16,115 bases of DNA, from NCBI GenBank assembly GCA_964648345.1, contig CAZYLP010000081.1, positions 1 to 16,115 on the forward strand, in the 5' to 3' direction. Shown piece after piece: positions 36 through 13,071 of this stretch (positions are counted from its first letter, which is position 1; each line of letters starts with the position of its first letter). The notes below the pieces were generated by a model that was not told the DNA's origin, ran no database searches, and worked only from the letters and a program-made list of their open reading frames with translations. Both the position numbers and the translations under genes were made by a program. Origin of the DNA: an uncultured Planctomycetota bacterium. GTDB lineage: Bacteria > Planctomycetota > J058 > JACQDU01.

Positions 36-536
36 CTACTCCGGGCGTTTGAACCAGCCGGTGGGACGCGGAGGGGCGCCCTTCTCGATGCACTCGAGCT
101 CGCTCGGCGTGAGGAGGATCCTCTCGACCTCCCACTCCGACTTCACGACTCCGAGCGCGATGAAGTACCCGCGTCCGACACGCCACGAGAGCTCGACGAG
201 CGCCGAGGCCGTGGCGGCATTGCCCGCAACTCCGAGGACGATGCGGACGCGCGAGCTCTCCGCGAGCTTGCCGGCGGCCTTGAGGTACGGGAGAGGCCCG
301 AGCGCGCGCGCCGCCGCCGGCGCGGGTGGCGAGCCGATGAGCGCGTTCGAGTCTCGCTGGCTCTCGCCCGCGCTCGCGAGCGCGGCAGCCAGCGCGGTGG
401 CGGCGCGCTCCTCGAGGGGCTCGGGCCCCTCCGCGACGAGCACGAGGAGCGTTCCCGGGACTCGCATCCGCTCGAGCAACTTCCGGCGAGCGTCGTCGTC
501 GGAGCCGATCAAGAGGTAGAAGGGCGCGTCTCTCAC
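36..536 (-). CDS. Hypothetical protein (166 aa), last gene of the minus-strand redoxin/peroxidase operon; possible Rossmann-like beta-alpha-beta core (VRIVLGVAGNAATASALVEL)
   Basis: Minus-strand ORF with balanced amino-acid composition, whereas the overlapping plus-strand ORF 49-519 is a Ser/Arg/Ala-rich wrong-frame product. GTG start at 536 lies 10 nt after the stop of the upstream peroxidase gene, consistent with co-transcription. No family recognised by eye. Confidence 0.45.
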   Translation of the reverse strand: MRDAPFYLLIGSDDDARRKLLERMRVPGTLLVLVAEGPEPLEERAATALAAALASAGESQRDSNALIGSPPAPAAARALGPLPYLKAAGKLAESSRVRIVLGVAGNAATASALVELSWRVGRGYFIALGVVKSEWEVERILLTPSELECIEKGAPPRPTGWFKRPE

Positions 537-546
537 GGCTCTGCGC

Positions 547-2325
547 TCACAACGACTCGAGGAACACGACCAGATCCGCGATCTCCTGCGGCGTGAGCTC
601 CGTCTCGTCCTCGGCTCGAGGCGGGTGGAGCTTCGTCAGGACGTCCGCGAGCGTGCGCGCCCTCCCGTCGTGGAGGAACGGCGCCCGGTGCCGGACGCCG
701 CGCAGCGAGGGCGGGTTGAACCCCTGGTAGACGTCGTCCCTCGACTCGAGGTCCACGAGGTTCACCCCGGCGGTCGTGTAGTCGGGCGGCGCGTGGCACA
801 CGTCGCAGCTTCGCCGGAAGAAGACCTCGCGCCCGCGCGCCGCCGCATCGGGTGAAGGCGTCGGCCGCGGCGGCACGAAGTCGAGGCCCTTCAAGAACGC
901 GACGAGAGCGTCGAGGTCCTCGCTGGAAGGCTTGGGCCCCTGGAGAGTCTTCGTGAGCGACTGCTCGACCGACGCGCGGAGGTCCTTCTGCCAGCCGTGC
1001 CACGTGTAGGGTGCCGTCTTCGCGACGCCGCGGAGGCTCAGCGTCTTCTTCGCGTTTCCGTACCGGCCGTCGTTGAAGGTGTCGTAGCTCGCGCCGTTCG
1101 TGTGCCCGTCCGTATGGCACGAGTGGCACGAGTACCACTGACGGAAGGATCGCTTCGCGTCGTAGAAGACCGCCTCGCCTTGCCGCTCGAGGGATCGCTT
1201 GACCGGCCCGCCGAGGGAGATCCTCCGGGTCACCGAGGCGCTCGTGACCGAGACGACCTGGAGCGCGTTCTCGAGGTAGTTCGAGACGACGACGGACTCG
1301 CCTCCCGGGAGGAAGGCCACGCTCACCGGACGGCCCCCGAGCGCGACGCGGCGGAAGCGCTCGCGGTCGGTGCGGAGGTCCGGGTCGATGTGATCGCCCG
1401 GACCGCCGAACGCGACGAACGGCAGCGGCTGTCGCAGGAGGAGGAGCTCCTGCGTGCCGCCGGCACAGAGCGCGAGGCTCGCGCCGTCGGGGCTGACCGC
1501 GACCCCGTCGAGGTCGGCCACCGCCTCGCCGCGAGGATCGAGGGCGATCGCCTCGCGCGGCCCGTCCTGGCGGAGCGGGACGCGGCTGAGCCGGCTGCCG
1601 AGGACCCAGCCGGCGTCGATGTCGTTCCGGTTCGTACGCCCGCCGCGCTCGGCGACGTTGGCGACGTACGCCCACGCTCCGTCGGGCGAGACCGCGAGCT
1701 GGCGCACGTTGTGACCGCGGAGACGGACGGTGTGGAGAAGTCTCAGGTCCTTCGCGTCGAGGACGCGGAGGTCCATCGAGCGCGCGTGCCCTACGGCGAG
1801 GCGTTCACCGTCGGGCGTGAGCGCGACGTGCCACGGCTCGGCGCCGACGACGGCGCTCGCGACGACGGCGAGGCTCGTCAGGTCCACGACGGCGACCGCG
1901 TCGTCTCCCGAGAGGGCGACGAACGCGCGGCGACCGTCGCGGGCGATCGCGACGCCGCGCGGCTGGTAGCCGACGCCCGCGCTCCCCGCGACCCTCATCG
2001 CCGGCGGCGCCAGGTCCAGCACGGTGATCGAGCCCCCGAGGAGGCTCGTCACCACGGCGCGCTTCCCGTCGGGAGAGAGCGCGACCGCGAAGGGCCGGCC
2101 CCGAACGGGGACCTCGGCCGTGACCGCGCCCTCCTCGAGGTCCACGAGCGACGCCGTGTCGGCCGTGGCGTTCGCCGTCACGGCCCAGCGCCCGTCCGCC
2201 GAGACGGCGAGCCCCAGCGGCGAGCGGTCTCTCTCCGGTTCCTGCGCGAGGGCGATCGAGAGAGTCGAGAACACGAGGGCGGCGCGAACGGGCGTTCGCT
2301 TCACCCTCCGTGGAGCGGAGATCAT
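547..2325 (-). CDS. Secreted fusion protein: N-terminal YVTN-type beta-propeller repeats plus C-terminal di-haem cytochrome c peroxidase (CCP/MauG family) domain
   Basis: Two CXXCH haem-binding motifs (WYSCHSCH and SCDVCHA) in CCP-like context (GEAVFYDAKRS...SCHSCH; GREVFFRRSCDVCH; PSLRGV...APFLHDGRARTLADV). Upstream half has repeated (V/T)SPDG...A(Y)V(A/T) blades typical of YVTN/PQQ-like propellers. Signal peptide MISAPRRVKRTPVRAALVFSTLSIALAQEP begins at the ATG at 2325. The ORF-track start at 2472 would add 49 Arg-rich residues ahead of the signal peptide, so 2325 is preferred. Confidence 0.8.
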   Translation of the reverse strand: MISAPRRVKRTPVRAALVFSTLSIALAQEPERDRSPLGLAVSADGRWAVTANATADTASLVDLEEGAVTAEVPVRGRPFAVALSPDGKRAVVTSLLGGSITVLDLAPPAMRVAGSAGVGYQPRGVAIARDGRRAFVALSGDDAVAVVDLTSLAVVASAVVGAEPWHVALTPDGERLAVGHARSMDLRVLDAKDLRLLHTVRLRGHNVRQLAVSPDGAWAYVANVAERGGRTNRNDIDAGWVLGSRLSRVPLRQDGPREAIALDPRGEAVADLDGVAVSPDGASLALCAGGTQELLLLRQPLPFVAFGGPGDHIDPDLRTDRERFRRVALGGRPVSVAFLPGGESVVVSNYLENALQVVSVTSASVTRRISLGGPVKRSLERQGEAVFYDAKRSFRQWYSCHSCHTDGHTNGASYDTFNDGRYGNAKKTLSLRGVAKTAPYTWHGWQKDLRASVEQSLTKTLQGPKPSSEDLDALVAFLKGLDFVPPRPTPSPDAAARGREVFFRRSCDVCHAPPDYTTAGVNLVDLESRDDVYQGFNPPSLRGVRHRAPFLHDGRARTLADVLTKLHPPRAEDETELTPQEIADLVVFLESL

Positions 2326-2363
2326 CTGTAGATTCGGCTCACCGAGCCGACGCGGGTGATGCC

Positions 2364-2963
2364 TCACCCATAGCCCTTCGTCTGCTTCGTCGTCACGTCC
2401 TTGCCGGCGAGGACCTCGTCGAGCGCCTCGCGCGCGTACTGCGCCTTGGCGGTGTTCGCCTTCTTGCGCCACGAGCTCGGGGTCTGGAGGTCGTCGAACG
2501 CGCCGTAGTAGCGGAGCACGCCCTCCTTGTCGATCACGGCGTAGAGCGGAGTCACGCGCGCGCCGAAGTAGTCGGCGACGATGTTCCGGTCGTCGTAGAG
2601 GATCGGGACGTCGAAGTTCTTCGCCTCCGCGTACTTCTTGATGTCCTCCGCGCTGTCCGCGGCGCTGCTACGGATCCCGAGGAAGACGACGCCCTTCTTC
2701 TTGCACTCGGCGATGAGCTCGCCGGTCCTCTTCTCGTAGGCCCAGGTCACCTGGCACTTGTCGCTCACGAAGTAGAGGACGACCGTCTTCCCCTTGAGCT
2801 CGGAGAGCCTGACGAAGGTCTCGTTGTCGCTCATCACGTCCTTGAGCTTGAAGTCGCGGACCGGCTTGTCGACCGTTGCCTTCGCGGGGGCGTCCTCCGC
2901 GGACGTCGCGGCCATCGATCCCGCGAGCACGAGGACTGCCAGAGCCAGCGAGCGTGCGCTCAT
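2364..2963 (-). CDS. Periplasmic thioredoxin-fold protein (TlpA/Redoxin/AhpC-TSA-like) with atypical single-Cys active site (VSDKCQVTW)
   Basis: Signal peptide MSARSLALAVLVLAGSMAATSA. Redoxin-like pattern KGKTVVLYFVSDKCQ...GVVFLGIRSSAD...FDVPILYDDRNIVADYFGARVTPLYAVIDKEGVLRY. GGGGAG Shine-Dalgarno 6 nt upstream of the ATG at 2963. The ORF-track N-terminal extension to 3191 is rejected. First gene of the operon, 38 nt upstream of the peroxidase gene. Confidence 0.7.
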   Translation of the reverse strand: MSARSLALAVLVLAGSMAATSAEDAPAKATVDKPVRDFKLKDVMSDNETFVRLSELKGKTVVLYFVSDKCQVTWAYEKRTGELIAECKKKGVVFLGIRSSAADSAEDIKKYAEAKNFDVPILYDDRNIVADYFGARVTPLYAVIDKEGVLRYYGAFDDLQTPSSWRKKANTAKAQYAREALDEVLAGKDVTTKQTKGYG

Positions 2964-2997
2964 ATCGTCTCCCCTCGCGGCCCATGGTAACCGGTGG

Positions 2998-3028
2998 CCC
3001 TGCTCCACGACGGCGCTCCCTGCTCCAC
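2998..3028. promoter_or_regulatory. Two copies of 11-bp direct repeat CCCTGCTCCAC (2998-3008 and 3018-3028), start-to-start spacing 20 bp, in divergent intergenic region
   Basis: Exact repeat read directly from the sequence. Lies between the divergent start codons at 2963 (minus) and 3167 (plus). Spacing of about two helical turns is typical of response-regulator or other dimeric regulator sites. Confidence 0.35.
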
Positions 3029-3132
3029 CTCGGCGCAGGCTCGACTTAGCGCCTCCTGGCAATGGAAGGACATACGGGTTGCCTCCTTTCTTGCACCACG
3101 TAGGTTCCACCAGTCGGTTCGAGACTCGGGGT

Positions 3133-3151
3133 TTGGGGGCGAAGCCCCCAA
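3133..3151. promoter_or_regulatory. Perfect hairpin TTGGGGGC-GAA-GCCCCCAA (8-bp GC-rich stem, 3-nt loop) in the 5' leader of the major-vault-protein gene
   Basis: Seen directly in the sequence. Ends 16 nt upstream of the GTG start at 3167, just before the purine-rich ACAGGGG putative RBS. It cannot be a terminator for the flanking genes because both diverge from this region. Confidence 0.4.
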
Positions 3152-3166
3152 GAACAGGGGTGCCAG

Positions 3167-5218
3167 GTGGTCGAGCGAGACAGGGACACACGCGAGCGGG
3201 ACATCCTCGTCGCGGGCAACGAGTACGCGTACGTCCAGGACCTCACGAAGGGCGACATCGTCCTCTACGTCGGTCCGACGAAGATCAGCCTCTCGAACAC
3301 GGAGCGGCTCGTCGTCCTGCAAGGAGGGCGCTTCGTCCCGGTGCGCAGCGAGGACGGCGGCGCGACGGGTGTGTCCGCGTTCGTCGCGGCGACGAGCTCG
3401 CAGTACATCGTCCTCGAGAACCCGCCCAAGGATCCGGCATCGCGTCCCGTGAAGGGGAGCAACTCGGCGGTCGAGCTCCTCACCGGCAAGAAGGTCGTCG
3501 TGCCCGGCCCGGCGACGTTCCCTCTCTGGCCGGGCCAGCGCGCGAGCGTCGTCGACGGGCACGAGCTCCGCGAGAACCAGTTCCTCTGGCTCCGCGTCTA
3601 CGACAAGATCGAAGGCGACCCGAGCCCGATCGGGACCGGCAAGATCGTCCGCGGCTCCGAGGTGAGCTTCTACATCCCGAAGACCGGCCTCGAGGTCGTC
3701 CCGGACCGGACGGGCTACGTCCGCAACGCCGTGACGCTCCGGCGCAACACGGGCCTCCACGTCCGCGCCGTCAGGGAGTTCACGGCGGGCCCCGACGACG
3801 ACGTGCCGGCGGGCAGCTACGCCGCGGGGCAGGGGATCTTCATCAAGGACCGCGAGGGCTTCTTCTTCCCGACCGGCGACCTCGAGGTCGTCGGCGAGGT
3901 CCGCACGATCCCGCTCAGCGACAAGGAAGGGATCTACGTCCGCGACATCGAGACCGGGCGGATCTTCACGGAGATCGGCCCCAAGAACTACCTCCCCGAT
4001 CCGACGCGCGTCGAGGTCGTCACGCGCACGCTCGACCCCGAGACCGCGAAGCTCTACGGGGTCGCCAACCACGAGAGGGGCAAGGCGGTGTCGGTCTACA
4101 TCCCGCCGAGCTTCGCCGTGCTGGTGACCGCGAAGAACAAGCGCGAGGTCGTGCGCGGCCCGCAGACGCGGATCCTCGCGTTCGACGAGGACCTCGAGGT
4201 CCTCAAGCTCTCGACCGGCAAGCCGAAGACGGACGAGACGCTCCTCTCGACGTGCTTCCTCCAGACCGACGGCAACAAGGTCTCGGACATCGTGCGCGTG
4301 AAGACGCGCGACCACGTCGAGCTGAACGTCACGCTCTCCTACCGCGTGTCCTTCATGCCTCGTGAAGGGCACCAGGGCGACGAGCGCTGGTTCAACGTCA
4401 AGAACTACGTCGCGCTCCTCTGCGATCACCTCGCTTCGATCGTGCGCGGAGCGGTCCGCGCGCACTCGATCGAGCAGTTCCACGCGCGGAGCACCGAGGC
4501 GATCAGGAACGCCATCCTCGGCGAGAAGCACGGCGACGAGCCGCGCCTCGGCCGGCGCTTCGAGGAGAACGGCCTCACGGTCTACGACGTCGAGGTCCTC
4601 GACGTGAAGATCCTCGACGCGGAGGTCGAGAAGCTCCTCTCCGACGCGCAGAAGGCCGGCATCGCCGCCGACGTGACGCGGCGTCAGGAGGAGCTCCGCC
4701 TCGGCGGCGAGAAGCTCAGGGAGCAGGTGACGGCGCAGATCTACGAGGCGCAGATCGTCACCCTCGCGCGGGCCGTCGAGCTCGAGAACGCGAAGTGGCG
4801 CGTCTCCGAGGCGAAGGCCCAGGCCGGCGTCGAGCTCGACAAGCTCGACCGTCTCGGCCGCGCGCAGAACGAGGCCGAGGCGCTCGAGATCTCGAGCGCC
4901 GCGAGGGCCGCGGCGTCCGGCCGCGAGAACGAGGTCGAGGGCAAGGCGCTCCAGGCTCGCGTCGCCGCGTTCCGCGAGCAGATGGGCGCCCTCGCGCCCG
5001 AGCTCGTCACGACGATCATGGTGCTCGGCGAAAAGCAGCTCGCCGGGGAGCTCACGAAGAACCTCTCGCCGCTCGCTATCCTCGGGGGAACGTGCGTGGG
5101 CGTGGTCGGGGAGCGGCTCCTCGGCGCCCTCCCGCTCGGAGTGACGGGGCCCGACGGCGCGGCCAAGGCCGTCTCGACGGCCGAGGCCCGGGCGAGCAAG
5201 GCGAACGGGAGGCGCTGA
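3167..5218 (+). CDS. Major vault protein (MVP) homologue, 683 aa: MVP repeat domains, shoulder (SPFH-like) domain and cap-helix coiled coil
   Basis: Alignment by eye to human MVP across the whole length. N-terminus: [21 protein letters not shown]...ERLV vs [22 protein letters not shown]...ERVL. Repeat 2: FPLWPGQ vs FPLYPGE. Shoulder: [28 protein letters not shown] vs [46 protein letters not shown]...[23 protein letters not shown] vs LSAGRPKRPHARRALCLL...[37 protein letters not shown] vs HKNSARIIRTAVFG. Cap-helix: [42 protein letters not shown]... Ala/Glu/Leu-rich coiled coil. GTG start with upstream ACAGGGG. Confidence 0.85.
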   Translation: [683 protein letters not shown]

Positions 5219-5245: not shown

Positions 5246-5791
5246 ATGGACTTCGAGTGCACCGACGACGTGCCGTTCCCCGCGGAGGAGGTGCACCGCC
5301 TCCTCCGCGACGACATGACGGCGATCCTTCCGTTCCTCTCCGACGTCGAGGCGATCGAGGTCAAGGAGCGGAAGGAGGAGCCCGACGGGATCCGGATCAC
5401 GAACTTCTGGCGCGGCTCGATCAAGGCCGCGCCGAAGATCGCCCAGAAGTTCATCACGAAGGACCTCGTGAGCTGGACGGACCACGCGTTCTGGCCCTCG
5501 GCCGAGCGGCGCGCGGAGTGGCGGCTCGAGCCGCGCGTCGGCGCGGGCGTCTTCGAGTGCACGGGCAAGACGAGCGTCCTCGACGGAGCTACGCCGGGGA
5601 CGTGCCGGATCCGCGTCGAGGGGAAGCTGGCGATCTACCCCGAGCGCGTCCCGGGCGTGCCGCGGATCATGGCGAAGGCCGTGCGCGGGACGATCGAGAG
5701 CGTGATCGTCGCCATGATCGTCCCGAACATGAAGACCCTCGCGCGCGGCGTGAAGGGCTACTTCGAGTCGCGGAGGCGTGAGCCAGGTTAG
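5246..5791 (+). CDS. SRPBCC-superfamily protein (START/Bet v1/polyketide-cyclase-like, DUF2505-like), probably co-transcribed with the MVP gene
   Basis: 181-aa ORF beginning about 27 nt after the MVP stop, with GAGGTC just upstream of the ATG. Mixed alpha/beta pattern with a C-terminal amphipathic helix (AKAVRGTIESVIVAMIVPNMKTLARGV) typical of SRPBCC ligand-binding folds. Family assignment is by eye only. Coordinates follow the ORF track; my own base counting near the start differed by 1 nt. Confidence 0.55.
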   Translation: MDFECTDDVPFPAEEVHRLLRDDMTAILPFLSDVEAIEVKERKEEPDGIRITNFWRGSIKAAPKIAQKFITKDLVSWTDHAFWPSAERRAEWRLEPRVGAGVFECTGKTSVLDGATPGTCRIRVEGKLAIYPERVPGVPRIMAKAVRGTIESVIVAMIVPNMKTLARGVKGYFESRRREPG

Positions 5792-5845: not shown

Positions 5846-6187
5846 ATGCCAGACGTGTGGGCGACTCAGTTTCTCGGAACTGTCTACGAAGACCTGTCGG
5901 GGAGGCTCATGGCCCAACGACAGTCCATCCCGAAGAACAGTCCGCCGACCCACCACGGCGGCGATCGTCTGTTCCGTCGCTTGGACTGCGCGGTGATCAA
6001 CTGGGCGGCGAAGGCGGGTCACTCCGGCGGTCGAGACCTCGCGTTCGACACCGTGCGGGGCGTGTTCGAGGAAGGGCTCCCGGCATCTCCTGGCGCGGCG
6101 GTCCGGCAGAAGTCGCATGTCCAGATCGCGATCAGGAGTCCCGCCTGCATCCTTGGGATCTTCCGGCCCACCGGCTACTCTCTTTAG
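5846..6187 (+). CDS. Hypothetical protein (about 113 aa) in a lower-GC segment
   Basis: Frame-2 ORF with a protein-like composition (MPDVWATQFLGTVYEDLSGRLMAQRQSIPK...). ATG at 5846 preceded by GAGGCGAAGG. The track ORF begins at a TTG at 5819. Third-position GC is lower than in the surrounding genes. No homology recognised. Confidence 0.35.
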   Translation: MPDVWATQFLGTVYEDLSGRLMAQRQSIPKNSPPTHHGGDRLFRRLDCAVINWAAKAGHSGGRDLAFDTVRGVFEEGLPASPGAAVRQKSHVQIAIRSPACILGIFRPTGYSL

Positions 6188-6198
6188 ACGAGGACCTC

Positions 6199-6417
6199 GT
6201 GCGAATCATCGACCCCTACCGCAAGGAGAACGCTCGGCTCCTGAAGTGGCTCGCGCAGCTCTCCGAGGAAGATGGCGTGAGACTCTTGAAGGAGTGCGGC
6301 ATCCTCGACGCGCGCGGAAACCTCGCGCGGAAGTACAGGACGCCGAAGGACGAGGTACAGAAACCGGCAAAGCCCAAGTCGCCGAAGACCCCCCGACGTA
6401 AACGAGCGGCTTCATAG
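6199..6417 (+). CDS. Small basic hypothetical protein (about 72 aa), C-terminus Lys/Pro/Arg-rich (KPAKPKSPKTPRRKRAAS)
   Basis: Frame-1 ORF whose protein-like part starts near LDEDLVRIIDPYRKENARLLKWLAQLSEEDGVRLLKECGILDARGNLARKYR. GTG at 6199 preceded by GAGGA 4 nt upstream. The frame-1 sequence further upstream (5857-6180) looks like an Arg-rich wrong-frame product. Alternatively this is the 3' part of a gene frameshifted relative to 5846-6187. Confidence 0.3.
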   Translation: MRIIDPYRKENARLLKWLAQLSEEDGVRLLKECGILDARGNLARKYRTPKDEVQKPAKPKSPKTPRRKRAAS

Positions 6418-6430
6418 CTCGACCGGCTGC

Positions 6431-7102
6431 GTGGGGATTTCCTACGAGCACTGGTTCGTCGTGCGCGACCTCGACTGGCGCCCGGCCAAGAAACACGGAG
6501 AGGCGATCCATCGCCTCCTCGTCGATTGGGGCCTCGTCCGCGAGAAGCCGAAGCTGTTCGCGGTTGACGAGGGGCACGAGAGAGAAGTGCAAGGCGCCGC
6601 TGTCGTGCGGGACGGCGCCATCCCTGACGAACTCTGGATGCGCTACAGCCCCATGGTCGAAGGCGAGGCCGCCGAACGGGTCGTGGGACCGCTCGAGGAG
6701 GAGAGCGTCCCGGAGGCAAGGCCGTTCATCTGGGCCATCACCGTCGTCCTCGGTCGCGACTACAAGATCATCGACGCTCCGGACTTCGGACCGGTCTCCA
6801 CATCTCTCGTGGGAGGGCGGAGACCGACGCACGCGGTCGGCGCGATCGACGCCGTCGCCGCGACGTGGGATCAGCCGCCGCCTCCCACCGAGGTCGCATT
6901 CTCCGATCCCATGACGGGTGATCCCCGCGAAGTGCCCGACGGGTTCGTCGGGCTCATGAGGTCGGGAGTCATCTTCGACTGCGACAGGGCTCGCCCCGAG
7001 TTCCCACGGAGTTCCGATTCCCGGCTTCCGAACCGCGAGTTCGTCCGAGCGCTCGAGGGTGCCCTCGAGACCGGGGTTATCGAGATCGGCCGGTACGTCT
7101 GA
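6431..7102 (+). CDS. Hypothetical protein (223 aa)
   Basis: Plus-strand codon usage is typical of the host (ttc, gac, gag, ctc, atc, high GC3), whereas the antisense ORF 6206-6832 is Arg/Pro-rich. GTG start at 6431. No recognisable motif (MGISYEHWFVVRDLDWRPAKKHGEAIHRLLVDWGLV...). Confidence 0.55.
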   Translation: MGISYEHWFVVRDLDWRPAKKHGEAIHRLLVDWGLVREKPKLFAVDEGHEREVQGAAVVRDGAIPDELWMRYSPMVEGEAAERVVGPLEEESVPEARPFIWAITVVLGRDYKIIDAPDFGPVSTSLVGGRRPTHAVGAIDAVAATWDQPPPPTEVAFSDPMTGDPREVPDGFVGLMRSGVIFDCDRARPEFPRSSDSRLPNREFVRALEGALETGVIEIGRYV

Positions 7103-7547: not shown

Positions 7548-7646
7548 ATCGCACGTTAGCTGCGTACCCCGATGTGCGACCAGGTGGTACCACGACACGG
7601 CCCGGCTGTGATACGGTCGCGCCGAACGCTCGCAGGGGGAGAGACC

Positions 7647-8459
7647 ATGAATCCGAACAAGGCGCTTTGGGAGAAGGGCGACTTCACCGAGATCGCCTCT
7701 TTCATGCGGCAGTCGGGCGAAGCCGTCGGCAACTCGCTCGGAGTCACGAACACGATGCGCGTCCTCGACCTCGGCTGCGGCGACGGCACGACCGCGGTCC
7801 CGATCGCGAGGCTCGGTGCGGAGGTCGTCGGGATCGACATCGCCCGGAACCTCGTCGAGGCCGGCAACAAGCGCGCCGCCGCGTTCGGGCTCGGCCGCCT
7901 CAGGTTCCAGGAGGGCGACGCCTGCAAGCTCGAGGGCGTGCCGGACCGCTCGTTCGACCTCACGCTCTCCGTGTTCGGGGCCATGTTCGCGCCCAGGCCG
8001 TTCGACGTGGCGAAGGAGATGGTCCGCGTCACGAAGCCGGGCGGCCGGATCGTCATGGGCAACTGGATCCCTGGAGACCCGACCTTCGTCGCGCAGCTTC
8101 TGAAGATCAGCTCGGCGTTCACGCCGCCGCCGCCCGAAGGGTTCGTGAGCCCTATGACGTGGGGCGTGGACACGAACATCTACGAGCGCTTCGGGGCTGC
8201 CGGCGTGCCCCAGCAGAAGATCACGCTCGCGCGGGAGACGTTCACCTTCATCTCCCCCGACAAGAGCCCGGAGCAGGTCGTCGAGTCGTTCCGCAAGTTC
8301 TACGGGCCGACGATGAACGCCTACGAGGCCGTCGAGAAGAACGGGAAGACGGACGAGCTCCACGCGCAGGTCGTCGATCTCGCGAGGTCGCACAACAAGG
8401 CGACGGGCGGCGGAACGTCGATCCCGGCGACGTTCCTGCGAGTCACGGTCTCGGTGTGA
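7647..8459 (+). CDS. Class I SAM-dependent methyltransferase (Methyltransf_11/25-like), 270 aa
   Basis: Motif I VLDLGCGDGTTAVPIARLGAEVVGIDIA, acidic post-I residue, and motif II/III region RLRFQEGDA...DLTLSVFGAMF...KPGGRIVMGNW. Strong RBS GGGGGAGAG 5 nt before the ATG at 7647. The track start at 7572 adds 25 improbable residues. Confidence 0.8.
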   Translation: MNPNKALWEKGDFTEIASFMRQSGEAVGNSLGVTNTMRVLDLGCGDGTTAVPIARLGAEVVGIDIARNLVEAGNKRAAAFGLGRLRFQEGDACKLEGVPDRSFDLTLSVFGAMFAPRPFDVAKEMVRVTKPGGRIVMGNWIPGDPTFVAQLLKISSAFTPPPPEGFVSPMTWGVDTNIYERFGAAGVPQQKITLARETFTFISPDKSPEQVVESFRKFYGPTMNAYEAVEKNGKTDELHAQVVDLARSHNKATGGGTSIPATFLRVTVSV

Positions 8460-8847
8460 CGCCCGGCCAGACCCGCCGCCCGTGCACGAAGACGGCGGCG
8501 ACGGTCTCGGGCTCGAAGGTCATGTGGAACCCTCGCTCGGGCGAGAGGAACTCCTCGGGCAAGAGGTCCTGCACGCGCCGGAACGAGAGGAGGTCGTCCT
8601 CGATCCCGACGAACTTCATACCCCCGAAGCCGACGCGCGCGGAGCCTCCCTCGTCGTCGCAGAAGACGACCTGATCCGTCGGGACGGGCACGCCGCGGCC
8701 ACCCGGGAAGTGGACGAAGGTCCCCGGCGGACCGTTCTGGACGATCGGGAGGCTCTTCGCGACGAGCTTGCCGCGCGTGATCCGGCTACCCTCGAGGAAC
8801 TCGACGAGCACGGGGATCTTCAAGACATCGACGGGATCAGAGTTCAT
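8443..8847 (-). CDS. Hypothetical protein (about 134 aa)
   Basis: ORF with protein-like composition (MNSDPVDVLKIPVLVEFLEGSRITRGKLVAKSLPIVQNGPPGTFVHFPGG...). ATG at 8847 is preferred over the track start at 8982, which lies inside the AT-rich palindromic intergenic region. The 3' end overlaps the convergent methyltransferase gene by 17 nt. No family recognised; weak PilZ-like impression only. Confidence 0.4.
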   Translation of the reverse strand: MNSDPVDVLKIPVLVEFLEGSRITRGKLVAKSLPIVQNGPPGTFVHFPGGRGVPVPTDQVVFCDDEGGSARVGFGGMKFVGIEDDLLSFRRVQDLLPEEFLSPERGFHMTFEPETVAAVFVHGRRVWPGVTPRP

Positions 8848-9077
8848 GGCCAACGAGACGGCAAGCCTAGCAGGTCTCGCGATGCTCTGACGACATGACG
8901 ACGGCTCGTCGACCCGCGGGCGGAACGGGATCAGCGCCGTAAACTTAAGATTACATTGCAATGCATTGCCTATGTATGACATAGGCCATTTTAGACGAGC
9001 ATCTTTACACCAGGATCGCCGTTTGATCCCGCCGGGATCGTCCGTGACCCGGACTCGGAAAGGAAGGCTGACGCCTC
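8848..9077. promoter_or_regulatory. AT-rich (about 45-50% GC against about 70% background) divergent promoter region containing three palindromes
   Basis: Perfect palindromes read directly from the sequence: CATTGCAATG (8954-8963, with overlapping ATGCAT and a flanking CATTGC direct repeat), GCCTATGT-atg-ACATAGGC (8968-8986), and GATCCCG-c-CGGGATC (9025-9039). An AGGAAGG RBS lies before the ATG at 9078. Confidence 0.45.
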
Positions 9078-9641
9078 ATGGACCTCTCTCTGTACGGACA
9101 GCCGGACGACGGCCCCTTCGACGGCCCGCTCGCGGCCAACTGCGCCGTGATCGGGTTGATCGTGATGATGCTCGTCGGCCTGGGCTTCGTCTCCTACCCG
9201 GTCGGGCTCACGCTCGCGTTCATCTTCCTGTGGGCGTTCATCGCCGGACTCATCGTCGGCGCCGTCGCCTACCTCCTCCTGCGGCGACTCCGTCAGGCCG
9301 ACAGGTCGCGGCAGCCCTCGAGCAGGATCTTCGACCCCTCGCTTCGCGCCGGCCTCGTGGCCGCGGCGACGAGCGTCGCGGCGCTCGGCATCGTCGATCC
9401 GTCTCTCGTGGCGCGCTCGACCCCGTACGCAGCCGCGCGCGAGGGAGGTCGCGCCTTCAGCGTCTCGATCCGTTCACCGCGCGCGAAGACCACGACTCCC
9501 GCCATCGCGGGAGAGGACGTCGAGCGAGCCGTCCGCGAAGCGACCGCGGCAGGCAGCACGCCGCCGGCCGAGCCTCCGCGCCCTCACCGCGAGGCCGCGG
9601 AGCCGACCTCGACCGGGTTCCTGGGCGCGCTGGGGCGCTGA
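9078..9641 (+). CDS. Small membrane protein (two predicted TM helices) with a low-complexity tail ending TSTGFLGALGR
   Basis: Hydrophobic stretches AVIGLIVMMLVGLGFVSYPVGLTLAFIFLWAFIAGLIVGAVAYLLL followed by a basic RRLRQADR. ATG at 9078 with upstream AGGAAGG. The stop at 9639-9641 is 3 nt before the next gene's GTG, implying translational coupling. Confidence 0.55.
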   Translation: MDLSLYGQPDDGPFDGPLAANCAVIGLIVMMLVGLGFVSYPVGLTLAFIFLWAFIAGLIVGAVAYLLLRRLRQADRSRQPSSRIFDPSLRAGLVAAATSVAALGIVDPSLVARSTPYAAAREGGRAFSVSIRSPRAKTTTPAIAGEDVERAVREATAAGSTPPAEPPRPHREAAEPTSTGFLGALGR

Positions 9642-9644
9642 GCC

Positions 9645-10862
9645 GTGGGACCGCTCGAATCGATCGGCGAGTGGATCTCGGAGAACAGGAACGCGATCGT
9701 CGCGACCACCGCGGGCCTCGTCGTCGGCACCGGGGTCACGATCGCCCTCCTCGCGACGGCTCCCGTGAGCATGCCCGCGCTCCTCGCCGTCGGAGGAGCG
9801 GTCGCGGCGGGCGCTTTCATCGGGACGGCGTTCACGTACGTCGCGCTGAGCGCGTTCGACGGCGCCGACCTCCAGGACCGGAGCATCGTCCTCAGGGCGA
9901 CGGCTCACGCGACGGTGGCCGCGGGTCTGAGCTTCCTGACCGTCGGCGCGCTCGGCCCCGCCGGCGGAGTGGCGACGGGCCCCGCCGGCGTCGCGCTCGG
10001 CGAGTCCTCGCTCGCGACGATCGCCGCCCAGGCGCCCACGCGGTTCGTCGTGGGCGCCGGCGCGGCGGGCGCGCAGCAGCTCGCGTCGAACCTGATCGAG
10101 GGCCGGCCCTCCGAGGAAGGGATGCCGACGGCACTCCTCCTCGGCGGGACGCTGACCACCGTCGCCACGACCGCGGGAGACCTCCACCAGGGCGTCTTCG
10201 CCCCTGACCCCATCGCAGACGCTCGGCCCGTGCTCCGCCACTCGTCGTCTCTCGAGCAGGACCTCGCTTACTACCGCGCCCAGGGTTGGAGGATCCGCTA
10301 CGGCGAGCCAGGACGCGGCACGTTCATGACCGACCCCGCGCCCGGCGTGCCAGGAGAGATCGTGATCGACCCACTGCGGCGTCCCTCTCCGACCTCGCTC
10401 ACGAACGGGCTCGCACACGAGGTCGGCCATGCGAACGCCGGCGCCCCTCCGACGTACGGTCCGAGCGCCACGATCGCGACGCGAGAGGAGTTCGCACGGA
10501 TCAACGTGCTCCAGCAGCTCGACGGCGAGGGGATCGCCGTCCTCAACGAGGCGACCGTGCGGAGCGAGATCCTCGCGGCCGGGGGACCCGACATCGGTGG
10601 GAGTCCTGCGATCCCGAGGTACGCCGACATCCTGAACGATCCCTCGATCGGCGCGTGGGAGCAGGCCCGGCGGTTGGGCAACAACTACAGGTACGAGACG
10701 CCGAGCACCAACCCAGCCGTCAACTACGGCCGCTACTGGAGCGCCTACTACGAGGACTGGTGGGACAGGGTCATGGGCTCGGGTCCGCTCACGGTCACCA
10801 AGGGGACGGCGACGACCGCGCCGGCGACGTCTCCCGGGATCCTCGGCGCGATCGGACGCTGA
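9645..10862 (+). CDS. Membrane-anchored protein with Gly/Ala-rich hydrophobic N-terminal region and a C-terminal HExxH...E (gluzincin-like) putative metallopeptidase domain; ends TSPGILGAIGR
   Basis: N-terminal about 180 aa of glycine-zipper-like hydrophobic helices (GLVVGTGVTIALLATAP..., LLAVGGAVAAGAFIGTAFTYVALSAF...). Motif NGLAHEVGHANAG followed about 20 residues later by REEFAR, the HExxH + E zincin arrangement. Aromatic-rich C-terminal segment NYGRYWSAYYEDWWDRV. Plus-strand codon usage is good. The antisense ORFs 9474-11198 and 9584-9886 are rejected. Confidence 0.6.
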   Translation: MGPLESIGEWISENRNAIVATTAGLVVGTGVTIALLATAPVSMPALLAVGGAVAAGAFIGTAFTYVALSAFDGADLQDRSIVLRATAHATVAAGLSFLTVGALGPAGGVATGPAGVALGESSLATIAAQAPTRFVVGAGAAGAQQLASNLIEGRPSEEGMPTALLLGGTLTTVATTAGDLHQGVFAPDPIADARPVLRHSSSLEQDLAYYRAQGWRIRYGEPGRGTFMTDPAPGVPGEIVIDPLRRPSPTSLTNGLAHEVGHANAGAPPTYGPSATIATREEFARINVLQQLDGEGIAVLNEATVRSEILAAGGPDIGGSPAIPRYADILNDPSIGAWEQARRLGNNYRYETPSTNPAVNYGRYWSAYYEDWWDRVMGSGPLTVTKGTATTAPATSPGILGAIGR

Positions 10863-10879: not shown

Positions 10880-11818
10880 TCAGCGGAACTTCGTCGCCCA
10901 GCCGAGACCGCCCGCCTCGCCCGCCGCGTTCATCGTCCTGAGCTCGTCCCAGTCCTTCGCGACCACGGCGTAGTCCGGGTAGGGCCCGGGCTCCTGCGTG
11001 TGGAAGATGTAGGACTTCATGCCGTTGTCCTTGTAGACCTCGGCATCCGAGGTCCTGTTCCCGAAGCCGTAGAGGAGCTTCGGGAACGACGGCCTCAGGG
11101 ACTTGAGCACGCGGTTTCTCTGGTCGTAGTTGTTGGCCTTGTCGCCCTCGGCGCGGAGGAGCGCCGGCCCGCGCGGGAACTTCCAGTGCGCGAGCCACGC
11201 CTTCGACTTCTGCGTGTAGGTCCAGTCGCGGCCCGTGATGTAGACGACCGTGCAGTCCTTCGCGATGTCGCTGAGCCCTCTGGGCGCGCCGGGGACCGGC
11301 GGCAGCTGCTCGATCGGACGGGCGACGACCTCGGCCCAGTGGAGCGCGGAGATCGTCATGTCGATGTCCGTCACGAGCATCCGGCGCTTGGGGTCGCGGA
11401 CGGCGACGAGCGCGTACGAGTCCGATGCCACGTACGTGATGCCGGAGTCGTCGTTGTCGAGCGCTCCGATGAAGCTCCCGCCGCCCGCGAGCCGGCCGGT
11501 CACGAGGAGGTCGCCCGGCGTGGAGGGCACCTTGACCGAGAGCTCGGCGTAGCCCTTCGCGTTCGACTCGGCGGTCCCGAGGACGGCTCCGTTCGCGCGG
11601 AACTGGACCTTCACGCCCTTCAAGTCGTAGGGCGTCGCGCTGTCGCGCCGCACCTTGAACTTGACCTTCGCGGTCTGCGTCCCGCTCGGGACGAGGACGT
11701 CGAAGCCGGTGAGGAGGGCCGCCTTCTTGATGGGGTCGGCCTGCGCACTGCCCGTGAGAGATGCGACGAAGCCCCCGCAGAGCAGTGAGGCGACGATGGC
11801 ACCCTGCCTCGATCTCAT
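10880..11818 (-). CDS. Secreted App1-like (DUF2183/LNS2) HAD-superfamily phosphatase, 312 aa
   Basis: Signal peptide MRSRQGAIVASLLCGGFVASLTGSAQA. HAD motif I VTDIDMTIS (DxDxT), conserved Lys region KANNYDQRNRVLKSLRPSFP, and motif IV-like YGFGNRTSDAEVY (App1 has GDSGQ.D). N-terminal beta-sandwich-like segment. ATG at 11818 with upstream GGGTGA. The track ORF extends to 12115 through an Arg/Gly-rich improbable N-terminus. Confidence 0.65.
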   Translation of the reverse strand: MRSRQGAIVASLLCGGFVASLTGSAQADPIKKAALLTGFDVLVPSGTQTAKVKFKVRRDSATPYDLKGVKVQFRANGAVLGTAESNAKGYAELSVKVPSTPGDLLVTGRLAGGGSFIGALDNDDSGITYVASDSYALVAVRDPKRRMLVTDIDMTISALHWAEVVARPIEQLPPVPGAPRGLSDIAKDCTVVYITGRDWTYTQKSKAWLAHWKFPRGPALLRAEGDKANNYDQRNRVLKSLRPSFPKLLYGFGNRTSDAEVYKDNGMKSYIFHTQEPGPYPDYAVVAKDWDELRTMNAAGEAGGLGWATKFR

Positions 11819-11940
11819 GAAATCACCCGTGATGAGTAGGCCGTGTGCACGAGTCGTGCCTCGTCCCAACTCGCGAAGGGCCGAGCGATAGCGTCTCGCG
11901 GGTGCGACGCATTCCGGGGAGCTGGAGCCGGAGGTGCTAC

Positions 11941-13041
11941 TCAGGTACTCATCCGCTTCCAGACCGGGACCGACCCCGGAGCGCCGCCGCGGATCCGCGC
12001 GATCGCCGCCTCCACTTCGCGCCGCACCTCGAACTCGGCGTCGCGAGCGGCCGCCTCGAGAGCCGGGAGAGCGTCCGCCGTCCCGACCTCCGCGAGGAAG
12101 CGCGCCGCGCGCCACCGCACGAGCTTGTTCGCGTCTCCGAGCGTCTCCAGGATCGCAGGCTGAGCGGCCGGGTCACCGAGATCGGAGAGGCTGTCGCCCG
12201 CCGTGCGCCGGACCGCAACGGCCTGGTCGCGGAGCGCCTTGCAGAGGGCCGGAACCGCATCGGCGCTCGCGGTCGCTCCGAGCCCGGCCGCGGCCCACCG
12301 CCGGACCTCGGTCCTCGGATCATCGAGCGCGAGCGCGAGGAGAGGGATCGCCGCCGGATCCGTGCCGAGCTGCTTCACGGCGCGGAGACGCCGCCGCCAG
12401 TCGTCGCTCCGGAGCTCGCGCTCGAGCTCGCCTGCCGATGCCGGCGGAGCGGCGGGCGGCCGCTCCGCGCCCGTCTCCTCGGCGAGGAGACGCGCGAGCG
12501 CCTCCTCGTCGAGGAAGGCCTCGATCTCGGCCGCGACGCTCGCCGCGACCTCCTCCACGCTGCCGTAGCGGACCCCCCGGTCCACCCACGAGCGCTCCTT
12601 CAAGTAGTCGCCGCCCGTCCGTGCCTGGATCTCCTTCGCGACCACGCCGAAGCGCGGGTCGAGCGCGACCCGCTTCTCGGCCTGGCCGTCGGTCGCCCTC
12701 ACCTGGATCGGGACCTGCCGGTACGTCTGGACCGAGACGCGGACCTGACCGCCCGGGCCAGGAGAGCTCGCCGGCGCCGGCGCGACGGAGCCTCCCGCGA
12801 GGACGGTCTTCGCGGCCGCGATGATCGGCTCCCAGTCGGCCCGCGGATCGCGGTTGAGCGTCACGAAGTCCGCGCAGATGAAGACGCTCTCGACGCCCGG
12901 GACCTCGAGGAGCTTCGCGACGAAGGGCGCGGCGCCCGAAGCGTTCGTGCGCGTGTACGTCGACGTCGAGCCGGCCGGACCCGTGAGGTTCAGCTTCATG
13001 CTGTTCGGGTTCGGCGTCGTCTCGATCGAGCGCAGCAGCAT
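11941..13041 (-). CDS. Nfu_N (scaffold protein Nfu/NifU N-terminal) domain protein fused to C-terminal HEAT/PBS-lyase repeats, 366 aa
   Basis: N-terminus MLLRSIETTPNPNSMKLNL matches the Nfu_N signature (M.I.TE.TPNPN.LKF). C-terminal tandem repeats of the type DPRTEVRRWAAAGLGATASADAVPALCKALRDQAVAVRR...LGDPAAQPAILETLGDANKLVRWRAARFL are HEAT_2-like. The N-terminal 161 residues of the track ORF are Arg/Glu-rich and antisense to a better plus-strand gene, so the start is placed at 13041. Confidence 0.65.
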   Translation of the reverse strand: MLLRSIETTPNPNSMKLNLTGPAGSTSTYTRTNASGAAPFVAKLLEVPGVESVFICADFVTLNRDPRADWEPIIAAAKTVLAGGSVAPAPASSPGPGGQVRVSVQTYRQVPIQVRATDGQAEKRVALDPRFGVVAKEIQARTGGDYLKERSWVDRGVRYGSVEEVAASVAAEIEAFLDEEALARLLAEETGAERPPAAPPASAGELERELRSDDWRRRLRAVKQLGTDPAAIPLLALALDDPRTEVRRWAAAGLGATASADAVPALCKALRDQAVAVRRTAGDSLSDLGDPAAQPAILETLGDANKLVRWRAARFLAEVGTADALPALEAAARDAEFEVRREVEAAIARIRGGAPGSVPVWKRMST

Positions 13042-13071
13042 GGCGGTGAGAGGGAGTATAGGCTCTCCTCG

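What the first reader, a model, noticed from the sequence alone, without database searches (positions are those of the whole stretch)
3167..5218. Bacterial homologue of the eukaryotic major vault protein
The 683-aa product aligns by eye to human MVP from the N-terminal repeats (FPLWPGQ vs FPLYPGE), through the shoulder domain ([21 protein letters not shown] vs [21 protein letters not shown]), into the cap-helix coiled coil. In eukaryotes MVP is the structural subunit of vaults, the largest ribonucleoprotein particles (78 copies per particle). Scattered bacterial MVP-like genes have been noted in comparative analyses, but as far as I know no bacterial vault particle, cargo or function has been described. 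A full-length MVP with shoulder and cap-helix, the regions that mediate the cap and half-vault contacts, suggests an assembling shell rather than a fragment. No C-terminal eukaryote-style cap-ring extension is obvious.
Basis: partly seen in the sequence, partly recalled or inferred. Interest (0 to 1): 0.85.

Follow-up and report, generated by a model that had tools for sequence, protein, structure and literature searches.

The report
Bacterial major vault protein homologue
This gene really does encode a bacterial relative of the protein that builds eukaryotic "vault" particles, but such relatives are already on record and widespread, and nobody has yet shown that any of them forms a particle.

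Summary
Window 3167-5218 (+) is a real 683-aa gene (GC3 0.95). Its product matches Pfam MVP_shoulder (9.9e-33) and Vault_3, and rat and human MVP by sequence (family profile E 3e-54). Its AlphaFold model matches solved vault structures (Foldseek 1e-31). The SPFH cages HflK/C, prohibitin and flotillin score far lower (1e-7).

The layout is about six beta-repeat modules (rat MVP has nine), a shoulder, a 124-residue cap helix, a conserved 47-residue C-terminal module and a basic disordered tail. No membrane segment is present.

It belongs to a very tightly conserved bacterial subfamily (55-71% identity) in Myxococcota, Planctomycetota and Acidobacteriota. This subfamily nests inside a wider group of longer prokaryotic MVP-like proteins, some of them on archaeal contigs. 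It is well separated from eukaryote-type MVPs.

No neighbouring gene is conserved. No vault RNA, defence-system match or phage relative was found.

Bacterial MVP homologues were reported in 2013, 2019 and 2023, and Asgard and pan-archaeal ones in 2026. I found no paper showing an actual particle.

The most likely function is a self-assembling, ring-symmetric hollow shell in the cytoplasm. That is inferred, not shown.

Verdict: a new member of a known kind, of moderate interest.

The parts
2964..3166 (.). Intergenic region of 203 nt between the divergent redoxin gene and the MVP-like gene. It presumably holds the promoter.
   Evidence: The redoxin ORF most plausibly starts at M77 (nt 2963), which is followed by a signal-peptide-like stretch. 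No sigma-70 consensus site was found. An AGGGG lies about 8-12 nt before the GTG start.
3167..5218 (+). Complete coding sequence of the MVP-like protein: 683 aa, 74.5 kDa, pI 6.1.
3167..3199 (+). Charged N-terminal tail (residues 1-11, [12 protein letters not shown]). Some relatives extend it with RD/RE dipeptide repeats.
   Evidence: pLDDT is below 50.
3200..3379 (+). Repeat module 1 (residues 12-71). It is the most conserved part of the protein; residues 21-40 have conservation 0.97.
   Evidence: Conservation. Predicted beta strands. This module sits where R1 sits in MVP, but a profile of it alone does not find MVP R1.
3380..3538 (+). Repeat module 2 (residues 72-124). It contains a disordered loop at 95-106 and the FPLWPGQ motif.
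   Evidence: It aligns to rat R2 in the secondary HMM alignment. Secondary structure.
3539..3724 (+). Repeat module 3 (residues 125-186). In 40 of 84 relatives a further 46-aa repeat follows it; this protein lacks that repeat.
   Evidence: hhalign places residues 126-186 on rat R5 and the relatives' extra module on rat R6.
3725..3904 (+). Repeat module 4 (residues 187-246), equivalent to rat R7.
   Evidence: There is a weak Pfam Vault hit at residues 191-207.
3905..4132 (+). Repeat module 5 (residues 247-322), equivalent to rat R8. It has a short helix insert.
   Evidence: Pfam Vault_4 at residues 248-266, below threshold. Alignments. Helix 291-297.
4133..4273 (+). Repeat module 6 (residues 323-369), equivalent to rat R9.
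   Evidence: Pfam Vault_3 scores 32.9 bits against a cut-off of 28.8 at residues 323-364.
4274..4618 (+). Shoulder domain (residues 370-484), an SPFH-like alpha/beta fold.
   Evidence: Pfam MVP_shoulder 9.9e-33, covering profile positions 3-118 of 118. pLDDT is about 90-95.
4619..4990 (+). Cap helix (residues 485-608), predicted as a single 124-residue helix.
   Evidence: DSSP helix 485-608. It aligns to rat MVP residues of about 647-800.
4991..5131 (+). Conserved C-terminal helical module (residues 609-655, with the motif [10 protein letters not shown]...ERLL..LP.G). It occupies the position of the eukaryotic cap-ring.
   Evidence: Conservation 0.77. Helices 611-638 and 644-654. Collinear with rat 803-855 in the full-length hhalign. 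Not significant on its own.
5132..5218 (+). Variable, basic, disordered tail (residues 656-683) plus the stop codon.
   Evidence: Conservation 0.3. pLDDT below 50. pI 10.9.

Best explanation
The gene encodes a genuine prokaryotic member of the major-vault-protein family, in a short form with about six beta-repeat modules instead of nine.

Shown: it is homologous to MVP along almost its whole length. It is soluble, with no membrane segment or signal peptide. It is a stand-alone gene. It is under very strong purifying selection, strongest in the first repeat and the C-terminal module.

Inferred: many copies pack side by side, as in MVP and every structurally solved SPFH-clan protein. The shoulder domains would form a ring, the long cap helices would bundle into a dome closed by the C-terminal module, and the repeat modules would form the thin wall of a cup. 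Two cups may then pair through the nearly invariant first repeat, giving a closed hollow shell shorter than the eukaryotic vault. What it encloses is unknown, and no candidate cargo is encoded next to it.

I put the homology at about 0.97 and the assembly into a cage of some kind at about 0.6. The confidence given below refers to the whole statement.
For: Family models: MVP_shoulder at 113 bits and Vault_3 above its cut-off. Sequence: human MVP 3.3e-30, family profile to rat MVP 3.3e-54, and hhalign probability 99.87% with query 126-661 on rat 213-855. Structure: the AlphaFold model (pLDDT 77.9, above 90 through residues 130-350 and the shoulder) shows beta modules, an alpha/beta shoulder and a 124-residue helix. 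The top 12 Foldseek hits are all vault structures (1e-31 to 1e-26, about 700 aligned columns), followed by the R1-R7 crystal (1e-12) and then SPFH cages (1e-7 or weaker). Solubility: the highest 19-residue hydropathy is 1.46. Selection: 84 relatives from several phyla are 59-71% identical, and residues 21-40 are almost invariant, as expected for a subunit with many fixed contacts. Self-sufficiency: no gene is conserved beside it in 64 genome loci or in three further contigs, matching the fact that eukaryotic MVP alone builds the shell (PMC11203631). Repeat modules come and go as whole 46-aa units within the family, as expected if they are stackable wall elements. For a five-repeat Asgard homologue, published multimer modelling gave a closed cup (PMC12962969).
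Against: No assembly was tested here, and I found no paper with an experimentally observed prokaryotic vault. The first two repeat modules are modelled with low confidence (pLDDT 50-60), and a profile of module 1 does not find MVP R1. The waist contact is therefore inferred from position only. The C-terminal module is not demonstrably homologous to the cap-ring. No vault RNA, TEP1 or PARP-like partner lies nearby. The published Asgard multimer model has only a modest score (ipTM 0.525).
Confidence: 0.6

Rival explanations
1. It forms an open cup (a half-vault) that caps another surface, for example the inner face of the cytoplasmic membrane, as canonical SPFH cages and some Dictyostelium vaults do. 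It would not form a free closed particle.
For: All other solved SPFH-clan assemblies are half cages sitting on membranes, and they are the next-best structural matches after MVP. In situ, some eukaryotic vaults bind membranes through the shoulder region (PMC13100048). Homology of the R1 module to the eukaryotic waist-forming repeat is not demonstrable by sequence.
Against: The protein has no transmembrane or hydrophobic anchor and no signal peptide. The N-terminal position that carries the anchor in SPFH proteins is occupied here by beta-repeat modules. The near-invariance of module 1 fits a symmetric self-contact at least as well.
Confidence: 0.25
2. It keeps the MVP fold but does not build a cage. 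It would act as a monomeric or small-oligomer scaffold or binding protein.
For: Nothing here tests oligomerisation. The protein has three fewer repeats than eukaryotic MVP. No partner genes are conserved.
Against: The shoulder, the very long single helix and the conserved C-terminal module are the elements that mediate ring formation in MVP and SPFH proteins, and all are retained. A 124-residue isolated helix is unlikely to be stable without lateral partners. Identity of 55-71% across phyla is unusually high for a simple scaffold.
Confidence: 0.1
3. It is an ordinary band-7/SPFH membrane scaffold that only resembles MVP locally.
For: There is a weak Band_7 hit at residues 368-507 (E 0.0041). 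Some database sources label relatives as 'HflC'.
Against: Band_7 scores 17.6 bits, below its cut-off of 23.6, while MVP_shoulder scores 113 bits. MVP structures score 1e-31 against 1e-7 for SPFH cages. About 370 residues of MVP-type beta repeats precede the shoulder. There is no membrane anchor.
Confidence: 0.02
4. It is eukaryotic contamination, or a recent transfer from a eukaryote.
For: Daly et al. raised transfer from eukaryotes for the cyanobacterial MVPs, which are much closer to eukaryotic sequences (PMC3762200).
Against: GC and GC3 match the neighbouring bacterial genes. The gene has no introns, and its neighbours are typically bacterial. Over repeat 9 plus the shoulder it is 26-33% identical to eukaryote-type sequences, 60-76% to its bacterial subfamily and 34-51% to the longer prokaryotic relatives. 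In the NJ tree, eukaryote-type sequences split off in 40 of 40 bootstraps, and this subfamily nests among prokaryotic sequences.
Confidence: 0.02

Closest known systems
Eukaryotic major vault protein (rat, human and rabbit MVP; PDB 4V60, 9BW5, 9R86, 9Z4W)
   Same: The domain order is the same: N-terminal beta repeats, an SPFH-like shoulder, a long cap helix and a short C-terminal module. The alignment is collinear from rat residue 213 to 855. These are the best structural matches. The protein is soluble and has no membrane anchor.
   Different: It has about six repeat modules rather than nine. The cap helix is shorter (124 against about 155 residues), and the long insert in repeat 8 is missing. 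Identity is only 20-26%. No vault RNA, TEP1 or PARP4 counterpart is nearby. Assembly and copy number are unknown.
Previously reported bacterial MVP homologues: Corallococcus, Plesiocystis, Enhygromyxa, Saprospira, Microscilla and Herpetosiphon (PMC3762200; 10.1101/872010), and phage or Clostridium MVPs (10.1101/2023.11.10.566534)
   Same: They are the same kind of protein. Myxobacterial members are among those listed, and all are known only from sequence and modelling.
   Different: This protein belongs to a compact short-form subfamily of 654-765 aa. The 2023 preprint gives a bacterial mean length of 822 aa. The subfamily is much larger and more conserved than the 'few Bacteria' in the literature suggest: at least 966 clusters at 90% identity.
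Asgard and other archaeal MVP-like proteins (PMC12962969; PMC13607799)
   Same: They are prokaryotic MVP relatives with repeats, shoulder and cap helix but fewer repeats (five in the Lokiarchaeial example). Their function is also unknown. Here, the closest relatives outside the tight subfamily include proteins on contigs with archaeal translation factors and one from a Methanosarcinales MAG.
   Different: Those relatives are 34-47% identical and mostly longer (800-950 aa, about three more repeats). The window's gene sits in a bacterial, high-GC context.
Canonical SPFH cages (HflK/C, QmcA, flotillin, prohibitin, erlin, stomatin)
   Same: They share the shoulder-like fold followed by a long helix, and they are second-tier structural matches (1e-7 to 1e-4). 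They give the general mechanism of ring and dome assembly.
   Different: They are membrane-anchored half cages with no MVP repeats. Here Band_7 is below threshold and there is no anchor. No NfeD or FtsH partner lies adjacent.

Membership tests
Major vault protein (MVP) family | Shoulder domain (Pfam PF11978, MVP_shoulder) | tested here: met
   It scores 113.1 bits against a cut-off of 25, E 9.9e-33, at residues 370-484, covering profile positions 3-118 of 118.
Major vault protein (MVP) family | Tandem N-terminal MVP beta-repeat domains (Pfam Vault, Vault_3, Vault_4; nine in rat) | tested here: met
   Vault_3 scores 32.9 bits against a cut-off of 28.8. Vault_4 and Vault are below threshold. The model is all-beta through residues 12-369. 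Foldseek matches the R1-R7 crystal structures at 1e-12. The family profile hits chain 3gf5 (R1-R7 only) at 2.8e-4. The count differs: about six modules here, and seven in 40 of 84 relatives. Repeats are not detectable by HMM self-comparison.
Major vault protein (MVP) family | Long cap helix directly after the shoulder | tested here: met
   A single predicted helix spans residues 485-608. It aligns to rat MVP from about 647 onward.
Major vault protein (MVP) family | C-terminal cap-ring module | tested here: inconclusive
   A conserved module at residues 609-655 is collinear with rat 803-855 in the full-length hhalign. A profile of it alone finds no MVP in the PDB. It scores only P of about 0.01 (probability 3-4%) against the human C-terminus or a eukaryotic C-terminal profile.
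Major vault protein (MVP) family | Self-assembly into a ring-symmetric hollow shell (39-fold half-vaults, 78-mer in rat) | not testable with these tools
   No multimer modelling or experiment was available. The literature has only an in-silico decamer cup for an Asgard homologue (PMC12962969).
Vault ribonucleoprotein (the complete eukaryotic particle) | Associated vault RNA, TEP1 (TROVE) and PARP4 | tested here: not met
   No Rfam match at E up to 1 anywhere in the window. No TROVE or PARP domain occurs in any neighbouring ORF. No neighbour is conserved in 64 related loci.
Canonical SPFH / band-7 membrane scaffolds | Band_7 (PF01145) domain above threshold | tested here: not met
   It scores 17.6 bits against a cut-off of 23.6.
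Canonical SPFH / band-7 membrane scaffolds | N-terminal membrane anchor (transmembrane helix, hairpin or lipidation site) | tested here: not met
   The highest Kyte-Doolittle 19-residue mean is 1.46, and it lies in the C-terminal module. The N-terminus is highly charged.
Cargo-loading nanocompartments (encapsulin or BMC type) | Shell gene with adjacent, conserved cargo or partner genes | tested here: not met
   No conserved neighbour was found. The fold is MVP, not HK97 or BMC.

The most novel reading that the evidence does not exclude
This short-form MVP builds a true closed mini-vault of two six-repeat cups in the bacterial cytoplasm. That would be a third class of prokaryotic protein compartment, beside encapsulins and microcompartments. 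It would be widespread in Myxococcota, Planctomycetota and Acidobacteriota and related to archaeal versions. The eukaryotic vault would then descend from a prokaryotic organelle whose function could be studied genetically.
Probability: 0.4. Interest if true: 0.75.

Novelty: new member of a known kind. Interest (0 to 1): 0.4.

Why it matters
The function and origin of vaults have been open questions for about 40 years. A compact, stand-alone and extremely conserved bacterial version offers a simple test system. One gene can be expressed in E. coli to ask whether it forms a shell. Relatives in cultivable Myxococcota could be deleted or imaged. The idea is not new, because bacterial and archaeal MVP homologues have already been published. 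This analysis adds four things:
- The family is large: at least 966 clusters at 90% identity, and 510 representatives at 50% identity with E of 1e-30 or better.
- Repeat number varies in whole modules.
- The first repeat is nearly invariant.
- There are no conserved partner genes.

Tried and rejected
- HMM self-comparison of the N-terminal 372 residues, to count repeats, gave no off-diagonal hit. The repeats are too diverged and the family too uniform (Neff about 2). The repeat count therefore rests on alignments to rat MVP and on predicted strands.
- A profile of the C-terminal module against the PDB found no MVP hit. Against the human C-terminus, and against a 50-sequence eukaryotic C-terminal profile, it scored P of about 0.01 with probability 3-4%. 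It is collinear but not significant.
- A profile of the first repeat against the PDB found no MVP hit.
- The synteny survey found that none of the window's neighbours recurs next to relatives. The only large neighbour cluster is Ser/Thr kinases at random positions.
- PADLOC defence models, Rfam and a scan of viral contigs all returned nothing. The BFVD fold search returned only SPFH-type viral proteins.
- The afdb50 fold library was unavailable.
- The exact look-up of the product failed because the translation tool renders the GTG start as V. The record was found through its cluster instead.
- A search for full-length eukaryotic MVPs in the protein collection returned only exon-sized fragments. 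The tree therefore uses repeat 9 plus the shoulder only.
- A test for helical periodicity of conservation in the cap helix was marginal (first half p=0.006 uncorrected, the rest not significant). I did not use it.
Full report
**1. The observation**

The window is a whole NCBI contig of 16,115 bp at about 70% GC. The ORF at 3167-5218 (+) starts with GTG, encodes 683 residues and ends with a stop at 5216-5218. Its codon-position GC (0.69/0.44/0.95) is that of a real gene in this genome. NCBI records the same 683-aa product (P0133). The N-terminus, [17 protein letters not shown], lines up with the N-termini of relatives (M.[12 protein letters not shown]...), so the start codon is right.

**2. Identity**

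- Pfam gives MVP_shoulder at 9.9e-33 (113 bits, cut-off 25; residues 370-484, the whole profile) and Vault_3 above its cut-off (residues 323-364).
- Vault_4, Vault and Band_7 fall below their cut-offs. NCBIfam has no model for the protein.
- phmmer against all PDB chains finds only MVP (human 3.3e-30, query 153-582 on MVP 294-751).
- A profile of 84 relatives reaches rat MVP at 3.3e-54 and also hits the R1-R7 fragment 3gf5 (2.8e-4).

Residues 58-233 and 293-771 agree with the target lines printed. The matching human C-terminus was validated by a 98%-identical database hit. hhalign then gives probability 99.87% and E 1.5e-31, with query 126-661 on rat 213-855. That alignment is collinear to within six residues of the rat C-terminus.

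**3. Structure**

AlphaFold2 with the 84-sequence alignment gives mean pLDDT 77.9, and above 90 for residues of about 130-350 and the shoulder. The model has:
- beta-strand modules through residues 12-369;
- an alpha/beta shoulder at 370-484;
- one uninterrupted helix at 485-608;
- two short helices at 611-638 and 644-654;
- a disordered tail.

In the Foldseek search of the PDB, the 12 best hits are all vault structures (rabbit, human and rat; 1e-31 to 1e-26; about 700 aligned columns). The R1-R7 crystal structures follow at 1e-12. Only then come the SPFH cages HflK/C, erlin, prohibitin, flotillin, QmcA and stomatin, at 1e-7 to 1e-4.

**4. Anatomy compared with eukaryotic MVP**

Mapping onto rat MVP gives module boundaries at about residues 12, 72, 125, 187, 247, 323 and 370. 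That is six repeat modules before the shoulder, against nine in rat. The last three correspond to R7, R8 (without its long insert) and R9.

Forty of the 84 relatives carry one more 46-residue module after residue 186 (consensus AVTLLDGEYCILLAPNG..YFRGPAVVFPEP.EEFV). hhalign places it on rat R6. Repeat number therefore varies by whole modules inside the family, and this protein is the short form. Six relatives also have a 40-residue insert in the R8-like module, where eukaryotes have one too.

After the cap helix comes a conserved 47-residue module ([10 protein letters not shown]...ERLL..LP.G; conservation 0.77). It sits where the cap-ring sits and is collinear with it. By itself it is not significantly similar, so this point stays open.

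The protein has no hydrophobic segment of membrane-spanning strength (maximum 1.46) and an overall pI of 6.1. Its short basic tail is variable.

**5. The family**

The best 120 are 55-71% identical over at least 93% of the query and 654-832 aa long. Sources label them Myxococcota, Planctomycetota and Acidobacteriota, mostly as 'hypothetical protein' and sometimes as 'major vault protein' or 'HflC'.

The nearest relative, at 96% identity, is a partial protein from a Planctomycetota MAG. The source organism of the window itself is not labelled. Among GTDB species representatives, 64 loci were confirmed. All are MAGs, mostly Myxococcota, with some Planctomycetota and Acidobacteriota and one Methanosarcinales MAG at 39% identity. 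This is a lower bound, because the scan needs exact peptide patterns.

Conservation is uneven. The first repeat module scores 0.88, with residues 21-40 at 0.97. The shoulder scores 0.75, the cap helix 0.59, the C-terminal module 0.77 and the tail 0.3. The best-conserved region is also the least confidently modelled (pLDDT 50-60). That may simply reflect the lack of sequence variation there.

**6. Wider relatives**

An exhaustive phmmer search of 1.84 billion representatives at 50% identity gives 1,098 hits at E of 1e-3 or better, 854 at 1e-10 and 510 at 1e-30. The tight subfamily collapses to about one full-length representative. The next 130 or more are longer proteins (800-950 aa, 34-47% identical) whose shoulder starts about 150-190 residues later, which means about three more repeats.

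I inspected contigs for four of these longer relatives; three had informative neighbours:
- One carries translation initiation factor aIF-1A, above the NCBIfam cut-off.
- One carries IF5A-type and NcsA-like genes.
- One carries a TrmB regulator.

At least part of this group is therefore archaeal.

I built a neighbour-joining tree of repeat 9 plus the shoulder (197 columns, 86 sequences). Eukaryote-type sequences separate in 40 of 40 bootstraps. The window's subfamily is monophyletic in 29 of 40 and nests inside the diverse longer prokaryotic group. Identity to the window over this region is 60-76% for the subfamily, 34-51% for the longer prokaryotic group and 26-33% for eukaryote-type sequences. 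Contamination and recent transfer from eukaryotes are excluded. The direction of any transfer between archaea and bacteria is not resolved by this simple tree.

**7. Context**

Upstream, and divergent, lies an exported AhpC/TSA-type redoxin. Its likely true start is M77 at nt 2963, followed by a signal peptide. Beyond it is a beta-propeller/di-haem cytochrome c peroxidase fusion. Twenty-seven nucleotides downstream, on the same strand, is a DUF2505 gene.

None of the window's neighbours recurs beside relatives. All-against-all clustering of neighbours in 65 loci finds nothing conserved except scattered Ser/Thr kinases. Three further contigs show unrelated contexts: fatty-acid synthesis, glycosyltransferases and amidohydrolases.

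The window has no Rfam match at E up to 1 and no PADLOC defence match. The subfamily was not found on viral contigs. The gene is a stand-alone unit. That matches eukaryotic MVP, which builds the shell on its own (PMC11203631). It also means that any cargo cannot be read from the neighbourhood.

**8. Mechanism**

The following are shown:
- homology to MVP across the repeats, shoulder and cap helix;
- solubility;
- strong purifying selection;
- modular gain and loss of repeats;
- absence of conserved partners.

The following is inferred from the solved structures of MVP and all SPFH-clan assemblies (PMC13100048). Lateral packing of the shoulders and cap helices would give a ring-symmetric dome, and the repeat modules would form the wall of a cup. 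Two cups may pair through the invariant first module into a closed shell shorter than the eukaryotic vault.

The main rival is an open cup docked on a membrane or another surface. A non-assembling scaffold is less likely, because a 124-residue lone helix and the retained ring-forming elements argue against it. Nothing here identifies the contents or the physiological role.

**9. What is known**

- Daly et al. 2013 listed bacterial MVP homologues from Corallococcus, Plesiocystis, Microscilla, Saprospira, Flexibacter and Herpetosiphon (PMC3762200).
- A 2019 preprint analysed myxobacterial, Cytophagales and cyanobacterial ones (10.1101/872010).
- A 2023 preprint reported phage-borne ones (10.1101/2023.11.10.566534).
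- In 2026, ten Asgard homologues were described, with a five-repeat example and an in-silico decamer cup (PMC12962969). A second 2026 paper reported a pan-archaeal repeat-plus-SPFH architecture (PMC13607799).
- The Asgard paper still speaks of 'only a few Bacteria'.

None of my searches found an experimentally observed prokaryotic vault. The library lacks most subscription-journal papers, so this absence is not proof.

**10. Verdict**

The finding is real and correctly interpreted, but it is a further member of a kind that is already described. The points I have not seen stated elsewhere are the size and extreme conservation of this short-form subfamily, its whole-module repeat polymorphism, its nesting among longer relatives that are partly archaeal, and its lack of conserved neighbours. 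These raise its value as an experimental entry point but do not change its category. Interest is 0.4.

Noticed in passing
window 2364-2963 (-) and 547-2472 (-): An exported AhpC/TSA-family redoxin lies next to a 641-aa fusion of a YNCE-type beta-propeller with di-haem cytochrome c peroxidase and cytochrome c domains. The redoxin's listed ORF runs to 3191, but its likely start is M77, followed by a signal peptide. The pair looks like a periplasmic peroxide-handling unit, divergent from the MVP-like gene. AhpC-like genes lie within a few kb of relatives in only 3 of 64 loci.
   Followed up: partly
window 5246-5791 (+): A DUF2505 protein of 181 aa starts 27 nt after the MVP stop on the same strand, so the two are probably co-transcribed here. 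It is a singleton at 90% identity in the collection and is absent beside all relatives.
   Followed up: yes
A1 alignment, after query residue 186 (window about nt 3724): Forty of 84 family members carry an extra 46-aa MVP repeat that aligns to rat R6. The window protein lacks it. Repeat number therefore varies by whole modules within one closely related subfamily.
   Followed up: yes
L069, L070, L072 and L063 (relatives P0395, P0384 and P0385, and a Methanosarcinales MAG): The closest relatives outside the tight bacterial subfamily are longer MVP-like proteins (745-946 aa, 39-47% identical). Their contigs carry archaeal genes (aIF-1A, IF5A-type, NcsA-like, TrmB). This points to a sizeable archaeal MVP-like group and to exchange between archaea and bacteria.
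   Followed up: partly
N-termini of family members (A4; window 3167-3199): The charged N-terminal tail (ERDxRERD) is expanded in some relatives into runs of RD/RE dipeptides, for example MPERDRDRDPRERDIPLRDRDVRERD. Its function is unknown. In eukaryotic vaults the N-terminus lies at the waist.
   Followed up: no
window 7113 to about 7560 (-): A receiver-like domain (Pfam cREC_REC, 7.5e-9) lies in the 3' part of a long minus-strand ORF. The 5' part of that ORF overlaps the SAM methyltransferase gene at 7572-8459 (+). The real gene is probably a short response-regulator-like ORF.
   Followed up: no
window 10880-12115 (-): A 411-aa protein has an LNS2 (lipin/PITM-type) domain hit above threshold (33.9 bits, cut-off 27.7) and a weak APP1 phosphatidate-phosphatase hit. 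This is a eukaryote-flavoured lipid phosphatase fold in a bacterial contig.
   Followed up: no
window 11941-13524 (-) and 11845-13527 (+): A HEAT-repeat, Nfu_N and 'Virulence_fact' domain protein is encoded on the minus strand. It is shadowed by an almost full-length antisense ORF of 560 aa with no family hits. That is a typical high-GC artefact.
   Followed up: partly
window 5857-6417, 6431-7102, 9078-9641 and 9645-10862 (+); 8443-8982 and 36-536 (-): Six ORFs, four of which passed the GC3 coding filter, have no Pfam or PADLOC match. The 187-aa product of 9078-9641 is a singleton in the protein collection.
   Followed up: partly
BFVD hit A0A3G5A4K1 (Harvfovirus sp., 802 aa): A giant-virus 'prohibitin domain-containing protein' aligns with the model over 770 columns (E 9e-12). 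This is much longer than ordinary viral SPFH hits, so it may be an MVP-like protein in a giant virus.
   Followed up: no
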